DNA of 62,561 nt from a virus (taxonomy: Duplodnaviria > Caudoviricetes). The DNA is taken from IMG/VR virus record IMGVR_UViG_3300045993_000669, positions 1 to 62,561 of that record; one strand, written 5' to 3'. Made by a program: the position numbers and the translations under genes. Of this stretch, positions 37,431-44,809 are shown piece after piece (position 1 is the first letter of the stretch; each line of letters begins with the position of its first letter). A model generated the notes under the pieces. It ran no database searches. It worked only from the letters and a program-made list of their open reading frames with translations, and was not told the origin of the DNA.

Positions 37431-37924
37431 TGCCCACCCGCGGCGATGTGGACTGGGACCCGCCGATGATCGCACGGCTGCGGGAGTTGTGGGCGCAGAC
37501 GGAGCCATTCCTGTCCACTGCGGCAATCGGGCGGGCCATGGGCTGCTCCAAGTCCGCCATCGTGGGCAAGGCGCACCGGCTGCATCTCCCCTCGCGCGCC
37601 AATCCCATTATCCGGGGCGATGGCACCCCGCCAAAGTCCAGCCCCGTTCCCCCACCCCAACAGAAGGCCCCCGCCGCCGTGCTTCACTTTCTCCCCACAC
37701 CCGCCCCTGAGCCGGACCCGCCCGCAAAGGCGGTGCTTCTGCCCGCCGCCAGCACGGCGCCGATGAAACTGTCCCCCCCGTGGTCGCGCTGCCATTGGCC
37801 GATAGGGGAACCCGGAACCCCCGCGTTCCGCTGGTGCGGCGAACGGGTGGCCGCGCCGCAGAAGCCCTATTGCCCCGAACACGCGGCGCGGGCTTTCACC
37901 AGAAGCCGCCACGACGCAGCATGA
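37430..37924 (+). CDS. gcrA: GcrA cell-cycle regulator homologue
   Basis: W...LRELW...SKSAIVGKAHRLHL and CHWPIGEP...WCG...PYCPEH. Confidence 0.9.
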   Translation: MPTRGDVDWDPPMIARLRELWAQTEPFLSTAAIGRAMGCSKSAIVGKAHRLHLPSRANPIIRGDGTPPKSSPVPPPQQKAPAAVLHFLPTPAPEPDPPAKAVLLPAASTAPMKLSPPWSRCHWPIGEPGTPAFRWCGERVAAPQKPYCPEHAARAFTRSRHDAA

Positions 37925-38241
37925 TCGAGAGCGTCCAAACTCTCTGCGATGCCTGCGCGTATGTTCCTCTTTCACTAAAAGAGGGCAAGGAACACGGCGC
38001 ATTTTTCCTGTTCGGCCTTTTCTGGGTTTTGTTCTTTGCTTTTTGGTACACATTCGGAAAACGTCGTGACTGAGATTGCAGGCCTCTCCTGCGCGTGCGG
38101 CGAGACGGACCTGATCGCGGTGGCGCCCGGATCGGAGCCGGAAAAGGTGGACCTGTTTACCGCCCGCATCGCGATCTCCCATGGCACCCCCGCCGTGGCT
38201 TGGTGCGCCGCGTGCTGGCCCACGAAAGCGGCGGCGGTAAG

Positions 38242-38751
38242 GTGACGGACTACGCCCCGCTCCCCGGCGTGATCCTGTTCCTGGATTTGGCGGGCACCAT
38301 CGGCTGGGCGGCAGGGCGCAAGGGCGACGATCCCCCGGCGATGGGCGCGATCAAACTCCCGGACGGCCCGCACTACGGCAACCGGCTGATGGCGGCGGAG
38401 AACGCGCTGATCGATTTGATCGAGACGCACCGGCCCGCCAGGATCGTCTGTGAGGCGCCGCTGAGGCTCAAGGCGCAATCCAACGCTGCGACGGCCCGCT
38501 GGCTGTATGGCCTGTTGGCCTACTGCCACGGCGAGGCTGCGCGATACCAACTGCCTGTGGAGGAAGTGGACGCCGACAAATGCCGCAAGGCGGTGCTGGG
38601 CCAATCGCGGGTGACGGCGGACCAGAAGGCGCGGGGGCTGACGATGAAAATCCTTTCGTTGCGATATTGCCGATATCGGGGATGGAACCCACCGACGCAC
38701 GATGCCGCCGATGCCGCGGTGATGTTCTATTACGTAATGACGAGGCGATGA
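38242..38751 (+). CDS. RuvC-like Holliday junction resolvase
   Basis: LFLDLAGTIGWA, IVCEAP, HDAADA acidic motifs. Confidence 0.75.
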   Translation: MTDYAPLPGVILFLDLAGTIGWAAGRKGDDPPAMGAIKLPDGPHYGNRLMAAENALIDLIETHRPARIVCEAPLRLKAQSNAATARWLYGLLAYCHGEAARYQLPVEEVDADKCRKAVLGQSRVTADQKARGLTMKILSLRYCRYRGWNPPTHDAADAAVMFYYVMTRR

Positions 38752-38776
38752 GACTCTTTGAATTAACTAAGGAATG

Positions 38777-38806
38777 TTGTAGGTTCGTTCCGTCGCGTGG
38801 AATAAT
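38777..38806 (+). promoter_or_regulatory. Putative promoter for pentamer array 1
   Basis: TTGTAG-18 nt-AATAAT with extended TG. Confidence 0.5.
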
Positions 38807-38818
38807 CCACCGGCCCAA

Positions 38819-38927
38819 GGCTGGGCTAGGATCGGCGTGTCCGGGACAGGCAGGGCGTGGCAGGCATGGCTGGTCAGGGATCGGCAAGGCTTGGCGGGGC
38901 AGGGATCGGCGCGGCAAGGCGAGGCAA
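38819..38927 (+). repeat. GGC-NN pentamer array 1 (putative guide RNA): 8 + 13 pentamers split by GGCA
   Basis: Strict 5-nt periodicity parsed by hand. Confidence 0.9.
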
Positions 38928-38931
38928 TCGG

Positions 38932-38957
38932 GGCGGGGCAGCAATGTCCCGCCTTTC
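38932..38957 (+). terminator. Hairpin terminator closing array 1
   Basis: GGCGGGGCA-GCAA-TGTCCCGCC followed by TTT. Confidence 0.65.
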
Positions 38958-39053
38958 GCTATTGCGAGCGACGCACAATGGTATAAGGTGACCGGCGGCG
39001 GCAGGGGTGCGCTAACACCCCAGACCGCCTGATCCGAACCTTGGAGATGAGCC

Positions 39054-39671
39054 ATGGCCCGAACTGTGAAAAAGCCTACCACGAATCCGTCTCAGACGCA
39101 GGGCATTGAGTTGCCGCGTTTCGATCTTCAACGAATGCAAATCCGACTGATCGGGGACGCCCCGCTGATTTGCCACGCATGGAGCCAAAAAGCCAAACAG
39201 CAAATGCTGGACAAACAGACGAAGCAGGCCAAGGCTGCGCGAGCGGCCAAGGACCCGATGCAGGACTTCCTTGATAGCCTCTATCCTTTTCCCGGCGGCG
39301 GATACGGCTTCCCCGCTATTGGGTTGAAGTCTTCCGCCGTCGATGCGTGTTCTCATGTTGAGGGAATAACGAAAGTCGAAGCGCGCGGCGCATTCCACAT
39401 CCAGGCCGAACTGGTAAAGATTGAAAGTGGCGAACCAACCATGCGCGAAGACATGGTAAGAGTCGGCCTTGGAACGGCTGACATCCGATATCGCGGACAG
39501 TTTTTAAAGTGGGCGATCAATGTTCCGATCACGTTCAACGCCGGGGTGTTGTCCGTTGGGCAGATCACAAATCTGTTCAACGTCGCCGGATTTTCAATCG
39601 GAATCGGCGAATGGCGGCCGCAGCGGGACGGCATGTTCGGGCTGTTCCACGTTGCCCGCGAGGGCGAATAA
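39054..39671 (+). CDS. Cas7/RAMP-like RNA-binding protein (VIPR-like effector)
   Basis: IGDAPLICH, GFPAIGLKSSAVDA, C-terminal G-rich loop GIGEWRPQRDGMFGLF; flanked by pentamer arrays. Confidence 0.7.
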   Translation: MARTVKKPTTNPSQTQGIELPRFDLQRMQIRLIGDAPLICHAWSQKAKQQMLDKQTKQAKAARAAKDPMQDFLDSLYPFPGGGYGFPAIGLKSSAVDACSHVEGITKVEARGAFHIQAELVKIESGEPTMREDMVRVGLGTADIRYRGQFLKWAINVPITFNAGVLSVGQITNLFNVAGFSIGIGEWRPQRDGMFGLFHVAREGE

Positions 39672-40219
39672 TGGCAGCGCGTCCATCAAGGCGGCAGGCG
39701 GAACCGGCCCGTCCGCCGCCGCGACCGGCCAATCCGCAAATGATTTATCGTTTCACGGCTGGGGCGCAACTTCCGGTGGACGCGCAAACTGCTGGCGAGG
39801 CGTTGGAACGGATACGGCGGCACCGTGGGGCGTTCTTCACGCCGGCCGATGTCGTGGAGGCGTCCCGCTTGCCCCGGGCGTCGTTGCATCGTTGTTTCGA
39901 ATGGGATGATGCGGTGGCGGCGGCTGCCCACCGGATCACGCAGGCCGGATACCTCATCCGGCACGTCGAAGTCATTCCGGCCGCCGGGACGAACACGCCG
40001 CCGGCGAGGGCTTTTGTTTCTGTCACTCAGGACGGCGGGCGGTCGCGGTCTTACACGTCGATAAGTGCGGCGATGCAAGACGCAGGATTCCGCGCGCAAA
40101 TACTGGCCCAGGCACTCGCGGACGTTGAGTCGTTCGTCCGGCGGTATGACCAGTATTATGGCGTTGCTGAATTGATGTCGGTGGTAACCGCGAAGATCAA
40201 AACGGCGGCGGCGGAGTAG
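39671..40219 (+). CDS. Partner protein of the RAMP-like gene
   Basis: TAATG coupling; LHRCFEWDDAVAA..HR..QA motif. Confidence 0.75.
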   Translation: MAARPSRRQAEPARPPPRPANPQMIYRFTAGAQLPVDAQTAGEALERIRRHRGAFFTPADVVEASRLPRASLHRCFEWDDAVAAAAHRITQAGYLIRHVEVIPAAGTNTPPARAFVSVTQDGGRSRSYTSISAAMQDAGFRAQILAQALADVESFVRRYDQYYGVAELMSVVTAKIKTAAAE

Positions 40220-40223
40220 ACTT

Positions 40224-40690
40224 GGCAGGCGAGGCATGGCGCGTCCACGCAAGGCGGGGAGCGGCGCGGTAAGGACGGGCTGGGCGGGGCATGGCAGGCC
40301 AGGACGGGCAAGGCGTGGAGTGGCCGGGATCGGCTCGGAACGGCTGGGCAGGGCAGGCGTGGAACGGCAGGGTGCGGCATGGCATGTCGCGGCGGGTCTA
40401 GGCGAGGCAGGCGAGGTTGGGCACGGCTAGGACGGGCGTGGAGTGGCATGGCGAGGCTGGGCAGGCGTGGCGGGTCGGGGCACGGTCGGGCGGGGCGCGG
40501 CTGGGACGGGCGCGGCAGGGCAGCCAAGGCGGGGCATGGCAACGCACGGCGAGGCAGGCACGGAATGGCAGGGCGAGCAAGGGCACGGTGGGTCAAGGCA
40601 TGGCAGGGCAGGCGAGGAGTGGCACGGCAAGGATCGGCAAGGAATGGCACGGCGCGGCGCGGCTCGGCAGGCTTGGATCGGGAACGGCAT
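40224..40690 (+). repeat. GGC-NN pentamer array 2 (putative multi-guide RNA): 8 units delimited by GGCA
   Basis: Units of 13, 11, 10, 10, 11, 6, 10 and 11 pentamers. Confidence 0.92.
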
Positions 40691-41012
40691 GAGCCTGACC
40701 GACTACCAGATCAGGAGCCTTCGCACCCTGGCAGCCGCGGGCGTGCCTCTGCCGGATATCGCGAAGCAGTTGGGCGTGCCGGTTTCCCGCGTCAGCCACG
40801 CGGCCCATTCGCTGGGGGTTGTCCTGACGACGAAGCGTTACAAGACCAGGATGGAGAAGCGCGCGGCCAGGGACACAGATGCGTCGAAGGCGGAACGGAC
40901 GCTGGCGACGGCGCACGCGCTGAACGACGCCAAGACCGCGCTCCGCCGGGAGATCGCGCTGGCGAAGGCCGAGGCGGCAACTTCGCCGCCGTACAGGGGA
41001 TCATGGGAATGA
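40689..41012 (+). CDS. HTH protein
   Basis: GVPLPDIAKQLGVPVSRVS. Confidence 0.65.
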   Translation: MSLTDYQIRSLRTLAAAGVPLPDIAKQLGVPVSRVSHAAHSLGVVLTTKRYKTRMEKRAARDTDASKAERTLATAHALNDAKTALRREIALAKAEAATSPPYRGSWE

Positions 41013-41371
41013 CCGGAACACACAGGGCCAACGGCGGCTACGCGAGGGCGGAGAAGCTATCGACCGCCCGCCGTTCCGAGATCGCACGGAAAGCGGCGAA
41101 CGCGAGATGGGCCAAATCCGCAAATGATTTACCAATCGACACGGCTGTTGTCGAAGCCTGGAACAGCGGAATCCTTTCGCAAAAGCAAATCGGCCGGAAA
41201 TTCAGGATCACGGAAAACCGGGTGGCGTATCTGGTCCGTGCCGCCCGGCTGGCTGGGATGAAGGTCCGTGCTGCTCGGGATAAGGTGCCGCACGAGGCTG
41301 TGGTGACGCGGGCGGAGTTCGAGGCGTTGGAGCGGCGGATCGCGGCGTTGGAGCGGGGGAAACGGGGATGA
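41009..41371 (+). CDS. Protein with GG.ARA.KL....RSEIARKAA.ARW motif plus HTH
   Basis: Motif visible; LSQKQIGRKFRITENRV. Confidence 0.65.
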   Translation: MTGTHRANGGYARAEKLSTARRSEIARKAANARWAKSANDLPIDTAVVEAWNSGILSQKQIGRKFRITENRVAYLVRAARLAGMKVRAARDKVPHEAVVTRAEFEALERRIAALERGKRG

Positions 41372-41567
41372 GGACGGTTATCCTGCTGCCCCTCCGGCTC
41401 GGCCATTTCGCCACGCGCAGGAATATCGCGATCACTTCGCAGAATCGGCACGCGTTCTCCGCGGCGCAACACGACGGCCTGATATCGATCACGCCGATTA
41501 CCAGCACGACGGCCTGGGTTGAACTGACCGCCAAGGGCCGGGCCGAGATCGATCGGAAGGGGGGAGC

Positions 41568-42593: not shown

Positions 42594-43994
42594 ATGGTTG
42601 ATGGATCGCTCTTCGGGCTGCGCCAGCCGCCGTCCAACCAGCAGGCCGAACAGGCCCTGCTTGGCGCGATCCTGTCCAACAACAAGGCCATGGCGCGGTG
42701 CGAGGGGCTGACGCCGGACCACTTCATCGATCCCGTGAACGGGCGGATTTTCAGCGAGTGCCAGCGGCTGATCAATGCCGGGCGCCTCGCCGATCTCCTG
42801 ACCCTGCGGACCATCTTTGAAAACACCGGGTTCCTGGAAGAAGCCGGGGGAATCGCCTATCTCGCGGGACTTCTCACGGCCACGACCGGGATTATCAACA
42901 CCACCGAGTACGCCCGGGTGATCGCCGACACGGCCCGGCTGCGGCAGGCCATCGACATCGGGGAACGGCTGGTGAACGAAGCCTACGCGGGCGGCGGCGA
43001 CCCGCAGAGGCTGTTCCTGGACATAGCGGCGGACCTGGACAGGCTCGGGGCCGCGCGCCGGGAGAACGCCACCACGACCCTGGCCGATGCCATGCGGCAG
43101 GCCGAAGAGGCCATGGCGCGGGCGCAGGACGGCCAGACGGCGGGCGTCTCCACCGGCTTCCGCTCCTTCGATCTGCGGCTTGGCGGATTGGAGCCGGGAT
43201 TCGTCTACGTCCTGGCCGGACGCCCATCCATGGGGAAATCGAGCCTCGGTCACCAGATCGCGATGAACGTGGCCCGCGCCGGGGTTCCCGTGCTGGAATT
43301 TTCCCTGGAAATGTCAGCCGCACAACTCGGCCGGCGGACCCTGGCGACGGCGGCGAACGTACCGATCGAAGCCATGAAATCGGGCCGCGTGAACATGCTG
43401 GACGCCGAGGCCATCGTGCGCGCCAGGGCCGAACTGTCATCGCTGCCCCTGGCGATTATCGACGCGGGCGGCCAGACGCCAGGGCAGATCGCGGCGGCGG
43501 CGCGTGCCCAGAAGCGCAAGGCCGGTCTCGGCCTGATCATGATCGATCACCTGAACCTCGTGCGTGCCGAGGACGCGGACGCCAAGCACGGGGGGACCTG
43601 GGCGACGGAGCGGGCCAGCGGCGCCGTTCTGGAAATGGCCAAGGCATGCGATTGCCCCGTGCTGCTGCTGGCGCAACTGAGCCGGGGCGTTGAAGGCCGG
43701 GAGGACAAGCGCCCGGTTCTGTCGGATCTGCGGCAGGCGGGCGCCATCGAGCAGGACGCGGATGCGGTCGGGTTCGTGTACCGGCCTGAATACTATCTCG
43801 GGCATGAGCCACAGGCGAAAACCGGGGAGAAGGCGGAATCCTTCGCCGCGCGAAGAAACGATTGGTTTGCCGATAAGGAGAAACACAAAGGCAGTGCAGA
43901 GGTCATCTGGGCAAAGGTGCGAGACGGGGAACCCGGAATCGACAAGCTACGGTTCGACGCTCAGACGGCCACGTTTTGGGAAGAACCCAGGTGA
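42594..43994 (+). CDS. dnaB: Replicative DNA helicase
   Basis: AEQALLGAIL, AGRPSMGKS, LAQLSR, SDLRQAGAIEQDAD. Confidence 0.95.
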   Translation: MVDGSLFGLRQPPSNQQAEQALLGAILSNNKAMARCEGLTPDHFIDPVNGRIFSECQRLINAGRLADLLTLRTIFENTGFLEEAGGIAYLAGLLTATTGIINTTEYARVIADTARLRQAIDIGERLVNEAYAGGGDPQRLFLDIAADLDRLGAARRENATTTLADAMRQAEEAMARAQDGQTAGVSTGFRSFDLRLGGLEPGFVYVLAGRPSMGKSSLGHQIAMNVARAGVPVLEFSLEMSAAQLGRRTLATAANVPIEAMKSGRVNMLDAEAIVRARAELSSLPLAIIDAGGQTPGQIAAAARAQKRKAGLGLIMIDHLNLVRAEDADAKHGGTWATERASGAVLEMAKACDCPVLLLAQLSRGVEGREDKRPVLSDLRQAGAIEQDADAVGFVYRPEYYLGHEPQAKTGEKAESFAARRNDWFADKEKHKGSAEVIWAKVRDGEPGIDKLRFDAQTATFWEEPR

Positions 43995-44809
43995 GCAACG
44001 CGGCCCGGGAGTGGGCGTTCAACCTCCCCATCACCGGACCTAGGAAGTCCGTCCTAGTGGCTCTGGCGCAACATGCCGATGAGCAGGGGCTTTGCTGGCC
44101 GTCCATATCCCGTCTCGTGCTTTATTCCGGGTCCCAGGAGCGGGCCGTCAGGAACGCGCTGCGTGACCTGGAGGAAGCCGGTTTGGTGATCACTGACCGG
44201 TCAAAAGGACGGGTCGCGAGCCACTACAGGCTATCGTTCAACCCGGCATCTGATGCAAAAGACCCGGCACATGATGCCCCGTTGCCAGAACCCAACCCGG
44301 CATCTCATACCATCCAACCCGGCACGTCATACCGCAACCCGGCATCTGATGCCGTTCAACCCGGCACCACATGCCCCCTAATAGTCAATGAACAGTCAAT
44401 AGAATCGTCAATAGAATCGTCAGGGCGATTACCCAGGAAGCGCGTCAAAGCGAAACCGGAAAAGGAACCCGATACCGTCATCCCGGATTGGATCGATGCG
44501 CGGTCCTGGCAAGACTTCCTCGACCATCGGAAAAAGATGCGGCGGCCTCTCACGGCTGGGGCAACGCGGCTCCTGATCGGAAAACTCGACGGCCTCCGAT
44601 CGAAGGGATTTAATCCTAACGAACTTTTGGACACGGCGACAATGAACGGCTGGCAGGGGGTGTTCGAGCCGAAGACCGCGAACGGGCAGCGGGCGCCGCC
44701 GGCATCAAAAATCGCATGGATGAAAAACATGTTCGGCCCACAGGCCGATCCCGAGCAAGACCGGTTCGATCTCGACCTAAACCCTGAAAGGCCCAAAGAC
44801 CATGAGTAA
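43991..44809 (+). CDS. Replication initiator (HTH_36 / lambda O-like)
   Basis: KSVLVALAQHADEQGLCWPSISRL; internal iterons; C-terminal WQDFLDHRK...NGWQGVF. Confidence 0.85.
   Translation: MSNAAREWAFNLPITGPRKSVLVALAQHADEQGLCWPSISRLVLYSGSQERAVRNALRDLEEAGLVITDRSKGRVASHYRLSFNPASDAKDPAHDAPLPEPNPASHTIQPGTSYRNPASDAVQPGTTCPLIVNEQSIESSIESSGRLPRKRVKAKPEKEPDTVIPDWIDARSWQDFLDHRKKMRRPLTAGATRLLIGKLDGLRSKGFNPNELLDTATMNGWQGVFEPKTANGQRAPPASKIAWMKNMFGPQADPEQDRFDLDLNPERPKDHE
44238..44372 (+). repeat. Origin iterons, 6 x ACCCGGCA core
   Basis: Copies at 44241, 44262, 44295, 44317, 44337 and 44359 inside the initiator gene. Confidence 0.8.

What the first reader, a model, noticed from the sequence alone, without database searches (positions are those of the whole stretch)
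40224..40669. GGCA tetramer punctuation divides the array into discrete guide-sized units
Seen: the 5-nt phase slips only at an invariant 4-nt GGCA (40224, 40293, 40352, 40406, 40460, 40519, 40553, 40607, 40666; also 38859). This gives units of 13, 11, 10, 10, 11, 6, 10 and 11 pentamers, mostly 50-65 nt, each with a distinct NN string. Slippage microsatellites would not behave this way. Inference: processing sites or filament boundaries, analogous to CRISPR repeats.
Basis: partly seen in the sequence, partly recalled or inferred. Interest (0 to 1): 0.8.

Follow-up and report, generated by a model that had tools for sequence, protein, structure and literature searches.

The report
Guide boundaries in phage VIPR array
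The GGCA "punctuation" is real and marks the joints between about ten short guide RNAs of a VIPR system, a CRISPR-like RNA-guided DNA silencer of phages first described in 2026 preprints, so this is a new example of a known kind.

Summary
Observation confirmed. The 447-nt array (40224-40670, + strand) is GGC-NN pentamers whose register slips only by -1, each time at a 4-nt GGCA (9 places; a 10th in a small array at 38819-38927). This gives units of 13, 11, 10, 10, 11, 6, 10 and 11 pentamers.

It is a VIPR locus: upstream array, vipr (39054-39671), accessory gene (39671-40219), downstream array. The protein family profile hits the solved SUSP1 Vipr protein at E 1.6e-13 and the model folds like Cas7.

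The same punctuation recurs widely. In 85 loci found by protein alone, 303 of 309 non-pentamer units are tetramers, 211 of them GGCA, and 61 of 61 arrays lie on the vipr strand.

In a related contig, one unit bounded by two GGCA matches another phage's vipr gene at 23 of 24 NN positions under the published one-base-skip rule. Its flanking units do not match.

The discovery preprint (bioRxiv 10.64898/2026.04.26.720920) already mentions "staggered" arrays with 1-nt overlaps, not yet confirmed by RNA sequencing.

Still open: RNA ends, and targets of this phage's own guides.

The scan noted VIPR on other DNA before. Verdict: new member of a known kind.

The parts
38819..38927 (+). Upstream vrRNA array. 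It has two units: 8 pentamers plus GGCA at 38859, then 13 pentamers.
   Evidence: Tiling parse. Same strand as vipr. SUSP1 also has one vrRNA upstream of vipr (preprint text; my parse).
39054..39671 (+). vipr gene, 205 aa, Cas7-like RAMP.
   Evidence: phrog_4652, E 1.4e-25. Family profile against PDB 36pp_D 'SUSP1 Vipr protein', E 1.6e-13. AlphaFold2 model pLDDT 93.6. Foldseek: 60 PDB hits at E<=1e-3, and those listed are Csm3/Cmr4/type VII Cas7.
39671..40219 (+). Accessory (vap-like) gene, 182 aa. Its ATG overlaps the vipr stop codon (TAATG).
   Evidence: phrog_15946, E 2.8e-21. Homologues in 54 of 120 array-bearing viral loci. Confident model, pLDDT 91.6, but no significant PDB fold or sequence match. 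No similarity to SUSP1 vap1. The calls used 39674-40219, i.e. without the first Met.
40224..40670 (+). Downstream staggered vrRNA array of 8 units.
   Evidence: 83 pentamers: 55 GGC, 5 GGT, 14 GGA, 5 GTC and 4 other.
40228..40296 (+). Unit 1: 13 pentamers plus GGCA (40293).
40297..40355 (+). Unit 2: 11 pentamers plus GGCA (40352).
40356..40409 (+). Unit 3: 10 pentamers plus GGCA (40406).
40410..40463 (+). Unit 4: 10 pentamers plus GGCA (40460).
40464..40522 (+). Unit 5: 11 pentamers plus GGCA (40519).
40523..40556 (+). Unit 6: a short unit of 6 pentamers plus GGCA (40553). It begins with GCC, not GGC, and may be a truncated guide.
40557..40610 (+). Unit 7: 10 pentamers plus GGCA (40607).
40611..40669 (+). 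Unit 8: 11 pentamers plus GGCA (40666). The next gene's ATG is at 40689.

Best explanation
The region 38819-40670 is a VIPR (Viral Interference Programmable Repeat) system of a roughly 62.5-kb phage. It reads: small vrRNA array, vipr, an accessory gene, then a large 'staggered' vrRNA array. By homology with the studied SUSP1 and P. fulva systems, the arrays are transcribed with the genes. One Vipr protomer binds each GGY triplet and so builds a helical filament on the RNA. The two variable bases of each pentamer pair with double-stranded DNA whose matching dinucleotides are separated by one skipped base. Bound targets in competing phages are then silenced. Each GGCA is the place where one pentamer register ends and the next begins one base early (GGCA[G]GC...). 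Two GGC triplets there lie 4 nt apart instead of 5, so a filament cannot run through. Each stretch between two tetramers is therefore one guide of about 10-13 repeats. Shown here: the anatomy, homology of the protein, recurrence of the punctuation across hundreds of viral loci, and one natural target whose match fills exactly one GGCA-bounded unit in a related phage. Inferred: transcription, filament formation, cutting at or near the tetramer, and what this phage's ten guides target.
For: (1) Protein. A 44-sequence family profile hits PDB 36pp_D 'SUSP1 Vipr protein' at E 1.6e-13, over profile positions 20-200 against residues 4-188 of 202. In that alignment the RNA-contact residues named in the cryo-EM preprint (H17, R138, D177, W178, R179) pair with window H41, R147, E186, W187 and R188. 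The last four lie in invariant or nearly invariant family columns. The model (pLDDT 93.6) resembles Cas7 subunits of type III and type VII complexes. (2) Array. GGY/NN pentamers lie on the gene strand, one array upstream and one downstream, as in SUSP1. (3) Linkage. A DNA motif scan alone returned at least 120 viral stretches. 67 of 120 encode a Vipr homologue (24-65% identity) and 54 of 120 the accessory protein. (4) Punctuation in 85 loci found by protein alone. 58 of 85 have a GGC array (77 of 85 with GGY scoring), and 61 of 61 arrays lie on the vipr strand. Units: 3059 pentamers, 303 tetramers, 6 hexamers. Tetramers: GGCA 211, GGCC 45, GGCT 20. (5) Unit size peaks at 9-11 pentamers, with 65-68% of units in 8-13. 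This fits the published 9-16 repeats. (6) GGC conservation is highest at unit ends, 0.80 at position 1 against about 0.53 mid-unit. (7) Natural target. The 12-repeat unit between two GGCA in L147 matches the vipr gene of L137 at 23 of 24 NN positions (E about 6.5e-4 for all guides against 3.5 Mb). The skipped base falls on codon position 3. The match is 21 of 24 in two further vipr genes and only 17 of 24 in L147's own vipr. The four units on either side do not match. (8) Ten-repeat windows inside units have best hits with at most 1 mismatch in 3 of 542 cases. Windows crossing a tetramer give 0 of 763, and shuffled guides 0 of 542. (9) The preprint's fig. S18 legend describes staggered arrays with 1-nt overlaps.
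Against: No RNA evidence: no listed run is on record as RNA. None of the window's 10 guides has a target above shuffled-guide level in the 3.66 Mb I could scan, which includes its own genome. 23 of 83 pentamers in the large array do not start with GGY; 14 are GGA. In SUSP1 the third-base pocket is said to exclude purines. Unit 6 has only 6 pentamers, below the published 9-16. The accessory protein shows no similarity to SUSP1 vap1, and its fold has no significant match. Support from natural targets rests on one robust hit and one borderline hit (E about 0.14). The excess among within-unit windows is small: at 2 mismatches or fewer, 10 of 542 against 4 of 542 shuffled. The published staggered architecture is itself a prediction.
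Confidence: 0.85

Rival explanations
1. Same VIPR system, but the tetramers are not cut. The array acts as one long RNA carrying several separate Vipr filaments (beads on a string), and the register slip only breaks the filament.
For: No ribozyme, hairpin or tail lies between units: they abut directly. Rfam finds nothing there. No nuclease is evident in the two-gene locus. The staggered type was not among those confirmed by sRNA-seq.
Against: The fig. S18 legend speaks of 'individual processed vrRNAs'. The characterised vrRNAs are discrete RNAs of about 100 nt. A DNA-threading filament tethered to neighbours on both sides seems sterically awkward; this is my inference.
Confidence: 0.2
2. The array works as DNA, not RNA. 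It could be binding sites for a DNA-binding protein (iterons or a centromere), or a G-rich structure-forming tract (G-quadruplex or R-loop).
For: The + strand is G-rich: GC skew is +0.237 in 40001-41000, the highest in the window. The GG-N3 spacing could in principle form two-layer quadruplexes. This is my inference and was not tested.
Against: The replication origin is accounted for elsewhere: iterons and an AT-rich repeat lie inside the O-like gene at 44293-44422. All 61 of 61 arrays share the strand of vipr, as expected for a transcript. The variable NN of a related unit spell a target by the published RNA-DNA rule. A DNA-site model explains neither the hypervariable NN nor the -1 slips.
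Confidence: 0.03
3. Low-complexity sequence: a slippage microsatellite, or a real protein-coding repeat.
For: Two of the six frames across the array are free of stops. In other phage records such arrays are annotated as hypothetical proteins, for example under a CDS in Gordonia phage Pipp.
Against: The period is 5, not 3. NN differ from unit to unit. Contigs from three further pond metagenome runs are identical over the array, with 0 other letters and no indels. A hypermutable slippage tract should not be so stable, though these may be one population. The punctuation is conserved among loci whose Vipr proteins share only 24-65% identity.
Confidence: 0.01

Closest known systems
VIPR 'staggered vrRNA arrays' (bioRxiv 10.64898/2026.04.26.720920, Results and the legend of fig. 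S18; text read, figure and supplementary data not seen)
   Same: A Vipr gene plus an accessory gene. [quoted passage not shown] This is what the GGCA tetramer is.
   Different: Nothing contradicts it. The text I could read does not name the junction letters ('ggca' occurs 0 times), gives no unit-size statistics, and reports no experiment on this architecture. I could not tell which of the seven types this locus belongs to.
Type II VIPR of Escherichia phage SUSP1 and the Pseudomonas fulva prophage (same preprint; cryo-EM preprint 10.64898/2026.04.26.720927, sections 5 and 6 read)
   Same: Homologous Vipr. One repeat tract upstream and several downstream of the two genes, on the gene strand. 10-15 pentamers per tract.
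   Different: In SUSP1 the four tracts are separate, with about 74-79 nt between tracts. They have no 4-nt slips and are mostly GGT. [quoted passage not shown] Here the units abut with no tail and are mostly GGC, and one guide takes 34-69 nt of DNA instead of about 148. The accessory proteins are unrelated by BLASTP. Vipr identity is low: 31% over 65 residues.
Class 1 CRISPR crRNA arrays and Cas7 backbone filaments
   Same: A RAMP-fold protein polymerises along a guide RNA. Foldseek top hits are Csm3/Cmr4-type subunits. An array encodes many guides.
   Different: There are no 24-40-nt direct repeats, no contiguous spacers, no cas1/cas2 and no Cas6 site. The period is 5 nt with 2 informative bases, not 6 nt with 5. 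Guides are delimited by a one-base register slip, not by repeat handles.

Membership tests
VIPR system | A Vipr protein: a small RAMP/Cas7-like protein homologous to the described Vipr | tested here: met
   Family profile against PDB 36pp_D 'SUSP1 Vipr protein': E 1.6e-13, near full length. BLASTP against the SUSP1 gene product: E 8e-8. Cas7-type fold hits.
VIPR system | Residues that hold the GGY triplet (SUSP1 H17, R138, D177, W178, R179) are conserved | tested here: met
   The HMM alignment pairs them with window H41, R147, E186 (D to E), W187 and R188. R147 and R188 are invariant; H41 and E186 are nearly invariant in the closer set. Residue roles are taken from section 5 of 10.64898/2026.04.26.720927.
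VIPR system | Tandem GGY/NN (YNNGG) pentamer tracts of about 9-16 repeats flank vipr on its strand | tested here: met
   Ten units of 6-13 pentamers, with 72% GGY in the large array. The periodicity is real. In relatives, 61 of 61 arrays are on the vipr strand.
VIPR system | An adjacent accessory (vap) gene | tested here: inconclusive
   A conserved neighbour gene is present (54 of 120 loci) and overlaps the vipr stop codon. It is unrelated to SUSP1 vap1. Only weak, non-significant winged-helix-like fold hits were found, best E 0.21. I could not match it to vap1-6, because the supplements are closed.
VIPR system | NN dinucleotides specify DNA targets with one skipped base, the skip falling on the codon wobble position | tested here: inconclusive
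   Window guides: no target above shuffled level in 3.66 Mb. Related array L147: 23 of 24 NN against the L137 vipr gene, skip base at codon position 3, E about 6.5e-4.
VIPR system | vrRNAs are expressed, are of discrete size and co-purify with Vipr | not testable with these tools
   No RNA holder is listed.
VIPR, staggered array architecture | Adjacent vrRNAs overlap by 1 nt, with no tail or ribozyme between them | tested here: met
   All 10 register changes are -1, at GGCA followed by GGC (or GCC once). Rfam finds no ribozyme or other family in 38000-41500.
VIPR type II (SUSP1-like) | Each repeat tract is followed by a conserved structured 3' tail of about 40 nt (pseudoknot) | tested here: not met
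   Units abut directly. SUSP1 tracts are separated by about 74-79 nt.
CRISPR-Cas | A direct-repeat/spacer array and adaptation genes | tested here: not met
   Tandem-repeat and tiling analyses show only the 5-nt period. The neighbouring genes are RuvC-like, an HTH protein, a methyltransferase and DnaB.

The most novel reading that the evidence does not exclude
The one-base register slip is itself the ruler. With no RNA structure, ribozyme or repeat handle, a 4-nt step between two GGC triplets ends one Vipr filament and starts the next. The exposed joint (usually after the A) is where a host RNase or Vipr trims. This 'frameshift punctuation' would pack guides about 2.5 times more densely than in SUSP1. 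It would be a way of defining guide-RNA ends not known from CRISPR, TIGR or type II VIPR. The joint letter is array-specific: GGCA dominates in 125 of 135 arrays and GGCC in 5. Arrays are more homogeneous than shuffles (81 arrays at 80% or more of one type, against a shuffle mean of 63 and maximum of 73). That would mean the joint base is read by something.
Probability: 0.45. Interest if true: 0.6.

Novelty: new member of a known kind. Interest (0 to 1): 0.4.

Why it matters
VIPR is a months-old discovery: an RNA-guided DNA silencer of phages, proposed as older than CRISPR. This locus adds a high-GC example from wetland and pond metagenomes, with a GcrA-like gene nearby. It belongs to the array architecture that the discovery paper only sketches and did not test.

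The numbers gathered here make that architecture concrete:
- The slip is almost always -1.
- The joint is GGCA in 70-85% of cases.
- Units peak at 9-11 repeats.
- GGC is best kept at unit ends.
- One natural target fills exactly one unit.

They also make the architecture testable. How guide ends are set without a tail or a ribozyme is an open question.

Practically, such arrays are being annotated as hypothetical proteins or left blank in cultured actinophage genomes (Mycobacterium phage Quico, Gordonia phage Pipp). Those phages offer tractable hosts for the experiment.

Tried and rejected
Ideas held before the literature search and then dropped:
- A TRAP-like ring protein binding 11 triplets.
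- A G-quadruplex or R-loop tract.
- Chi-like sites.
- A replication origin. The iterons are at 44293-44422.
- A partition site.

Searches that gave nothing usable:
- Targets of the window's 10 guides under the one-base-skip rule, scanned against the window and all fetched loci (3.47 Mb, then 3.66 Mb). The best hits equal those of shuffled guides, and there is no self-target.
- Relatives by large terminase, to enlarge the target set: only 8 loci.
- Relatives by Vipr in species genomes: 5 loci at 47-60% identity, no close relative.
- A collection-wide search with the guides' gapped patterns was not run, so the targets stay open.
- RNA evidence: no RNA holder listed.
- Unit gain or loss among variants: contigs of three pond metagenome runs are identical over the array, and a fourth run holds only fragments. 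Nothing can be learned from them.
- Promoter and terminator consensus scan of 38600-41100: 0 promoter-like sites, and 1 terminator-like site at 38703-38721 against a shuffle mean of 2.3.
- Rfam at E<=1: only a chance lncRNA hit at E 0.94.
- Pfam: nothing for vipr or the accessory gene.
- Accessory protein: no significant PDB fold match (best E 0.21) and no convincing sequence match (best E 0.015 to an ssDNA-binding protein over 46 residues).
- The search for related loci with the 44-sequence alignment failed for lack of conserved stretches. A 12-sequence alignment worked.
- Alternation of strong and weak triplets, seen by eye in the window, is not general: correlation is 0.06 at lag 1 and 0.11 at lag 2.
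- One search had a counting bug and was replaced.
- Most guide-target hits with 2 mismatches in 20 are at chance level and are not counted as targets.

Full report
**1. The observation**

The window is the whole assembly held for this sequence: one 62,561-base contig at 63.5% GC. It has phage genes:
- major head protein, large terminase and tail fibre proteins;
- Erf-like annealase;
- RuvC-like resolvase, GcrA-like regulator, DNA methyltransferase and an O-like initiator.

Between two + strand genes lies a G-rich tract, 40224-40670. GGC triplets there are spaced by 5, 10 or 15 nt. The exceptions are 4-nt steps at 40224, 40293, 40352, 40406, 40460, 40553, 40607 and 40666. At 40519 there is a 9-nt (4+5) step, because the next triplet is GCC.

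I tiled the sequence by dynamic programming. The scheme scores units by their first three letters and penalises 4-nt and 6-nt units equally. It finds only two arrays in the contig, both on the + strand: 40228-40670 and 38819-38927. Every non-pentamer unit is GGCA. The small array has 8 and 13.

The pattern is not chance:
- A motif spanning a joint occurs 6 times in the window and 0 times in 100 shuffles.
- Ten joints all ending in A has P about 7e-5, given the array's own composition.
- G autocorrelation peaks at lags 5, 10 and 15 (0.52, 0.44, 0.45). It is flat in the neighbouring gene.

**2. What surrounds it**

The array follows two genes without Pfam matches that belong to PHROG families of unknown function. 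These are ORF 39054-39671 (205 aa) and ORF 39671-40219, whose start overlaps the first gene's stop codon. The small array lies just upstream of the first gene.

**3. The element is widespread and linked to these two genes**

- Tiling found 99 arrays in 89 of these 120 loci. They hold 6058 pentamers, 609 tetramers (520 GGCA) and 17 units of other lengths.
- 67 of 120 loci encode a homologue of the 205-aa protein (24-65% identity), and 54 of 120 a homologue of the second protein.

That scan required one GGCA joint per locus. I therefore repeated the count on loci found by protein only: 80 viral contigs kept from 497 relatives, plus 5 species-genome loci.
- 58 of 85 have a GGC array, or 77 of 85 when GGT also scores. 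The 8 without an array are mostly short contigs.
- All 61 arrays lie on the strand of the gene.
- Units: 3059 pentamers, 303 tetramers, 6 hexamers.
- Tetramers: GGCA 211, GGCC 45, GGCT 20, GGCG 6, others 21.

So the -1 slip is the rule. GGCA is the usual letter pattern, but not the only one.

Further statistics:
- Units between two tetramers peak at 8-10 pentamers in the motif set and 9-11 in the protein set. 65% and 68% lie in 8-13, with a tail of short units.
- GGC is best conserved at unit ends: 0.80 at the first pentamer against about 0.53 in the middle.
- GGCA dominates in 125 of 135 arrays that have three or more joints. Arrays are more uniform in their joint letters than shuffles.
- The same design occurs in cultured actinophages. 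Mycobacterium phage Quico has it in an unannotated gap upstream of gene 57. Gordonia phage Pipp has it under the annotated CDS 43.

**4. What it is**

A literature search led to bioRxiv 10.64898/2026.04.26.720920. I read its Results, Discussion, four Methods sections and the supplementary figure legends held in the text. I saw no figures or supplements.

The preprint describes VIPR systems:
- a small RAMP protein (Vipr) and an accessory gene (vap);
- vrRNAs of 9-16 YNNGG repeats, in which the NN pair with double-stranded DNA while every third target base is skipped;
- natural targets that lie in competing phages.

The companion cryo-EM preprint is 10.64898/2026.04.26.720927. I read sections 5 and 6 plus passages. 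It shows one protomer per repeat in a helical filament, with the GGY bases held between neighbouring protomers.

Two further preprints were seen only as passages. They use or recover VIPR arrays.

The discovery paper says that, besides the SUSP1-type arrays, there are 'staggered arrays with overlapping vrRNAs'. The fig. [quoted passage not shown] Only the ribozyme-type and single-vrRNA types were confirmed by sRNA-seq.

**5. Membership tested here**

- A 44-sequence profile of the 205-aa family hits PDB 36pp_D, 'SUSP1 Vipr protein', at E 1.6e-13 over nearly its whole length. The next hits have E above 0.6.
- In that alignment the RNA-contact residues of SUSP1 Vipr pair with conserved window residues: H41, R147, E186, W187 and R188.
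- The AlphaFold2 model (pLDDT 93.6, pTM 0.83) gives 60 PDB matches at E<=1e-3. Those listed are Cas7-type subunits of type III and type VII complexes.
- The accessory protein folds confidently, but has no significant structural or sequence match and no similarity to SUSP1 vap1.
- I parsed the SUSP1 locus with the same tiling. Its four tracts (11, 15, 14 and 10 pentamers, mostly GGT) are about 74-79 nt apart and have no 4-nt slips. So the window is not of the SUSP1 (type II) design.
- I could not assign a type number.

**6. Do the tetramers delimit guides?**

I wrote every unit of every array as a one-base-skip pattern and scanned all fetched DNA.

Most hits are at the level of shuffled guides, but one stands out:
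- The 12-repeat unit between two GGCA in the upstream array of L147 matches the vipr gene of L137 at 23 of 24 NN positions. E is about 6.5e-4 for 719 guides against 3.5 Mb.
- The skipped base lies on codon position 3, in a conserved Lys/Gln-rich stretch.
- The same site in two other vipr genes matches 21 of 24. L147's own vipr matches only 17 of 24.
- The match begins at the first pentamer after one tetramer and ends at the last pentamer before the next. The flanking units do not match.

A second hit, 19 of 20, is borderline at E about 0.14. It also starts right after a tetramer.

I also compared ten-repeat windows:

| Window type | Best hit with at most 1 mismatch | Best hit with at most 2 mismatches |
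|---|---|---|
| Inside units | 3 of 542 | 10 of 542 |
| Crossing a tetramer | 0 of 763 | 3 of 763 |
| Shuffled | 0 of 542 | 4 of 542 |

This is a small excess in the expected direction.

The window's own ten guides found no target, and no self-target, in 3.66 Mb.

**7. Mechanism, with its status**

- Shown: the anatomy, the homology, the recurrence, and one unit-sized natural target.
- By homology with SUSP1: transcription with the operon, one Vipr per GGY, NN pairing with a one-base skip, and silencing of rival phages.
- Inferred for the joint: two GGC triplets 4 nt apart leave one base instead of two between bound triplets. A filament therefore cannot continue in register. It ends there, and the next filament starts one base early.
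- Open: whether the RNA is also cut there, and by what. A variant without cutting is the main rival.

Caveats:
- 23 of 83 pentamers in the large array are not GGY; 14 are GGA.
- Unit 6 is short.
- There is no RNA data.
- Contigs from three other pond metagenome runs are identical over the array, so nothing can be said on unit turnover.

**8. Novelty**

The kind is known from 2026 preprints, and the scan has met it on other DNA (8 notes, read after my own identification). This locus is a new member, with the less studied staggered array.

In the text I could search, the joint letters are not named: 'ggca' occurs 0 times in the discovery preprint. 'Staggered' occurs 0 times in the cryo-EM preprint and in the October preprint. 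The closed supplements may hold this information.

The statistics and the unit-sized natural target reported here are modest additions, not a new system.

Noticed in passing
L147:3786-3943 (guide) and L137:4139-4174 (target): A vrRNA unit of one viral contig targets the vipr gene of another VIPR-carrying contig at 23 of 24 NN positions. It matches its own vipr at only 17 of 24, through non-synonymous differences. This is an example of VIPR-against-VIPR conflict in this clade.
   Followed up: yes
L215:2617-2832 (Gordonia phage Pipp, MN234179) and L214:1608-1848 (Mycobacterium phage Quico, NC_028751): Cultured actinophages carry the same GGCA-punctuated arrays next to a Vipr homologue. In Pipp the array lies under an annotated 'hypothetical protein' CDS (gene 43). 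In Quico it lies in an unannotated gap before gene 57. BLAST also places array-like DNA under hypothetical-protein CDSs in other mycobacteriophages.
   Followed up: partly
window 44293-44422: A 22-nt repeat (3.8 copies) and an AT-rich 12-nt repeat (3.7 copies) lie inside the O-like initiator gene (43976-44809). This looks like a lambda-type replication origin with iterons.
   Followed up: no
window 39669-39673: The vipr stop codon and the accessory gene's start codon overlap (TAATG). This suggests translational coupling of the two genes.
   Followed up: no
window 40224-40670, and 146 distinct arrays in the loci: GGC is kept best at the first and last pentamers of a unit and worst in the middle. 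The window's array has unusually many GGA units (14 of 83) compared with 2-6% across arrays. In SUSP1 the third-base pocket is said to exclude purines.
   Followed up: partly
window 40523-40556: One unit has only 6 pentamers and starts with GCC instead of GGC. It may be a truncated or decaying guide. Short units of 1-6 pentamers form a tail in the size distribution of other arrays too.
   Followed up: no
window 37466-37924 and 40689-41012: There is a GcrA-like regulator gene (Pfam E 2.8e-19). The small HTH gene right after the array has a weak GcrA/HTH match below Pfam's cut-off. Together with Vipr relatives in MAGs titled Rhodospirillaceae, this hints at an alphaproteobacterial host.
   Followed up: no
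L159, L161, L194 and L189 arrays: A few arrays use GGCC rather than GGCA as the main joint. Arrays are more uniform in their joint letter than shuffles, so the fourth base may be read by a lineage-specific factor.
   Followed up: partly
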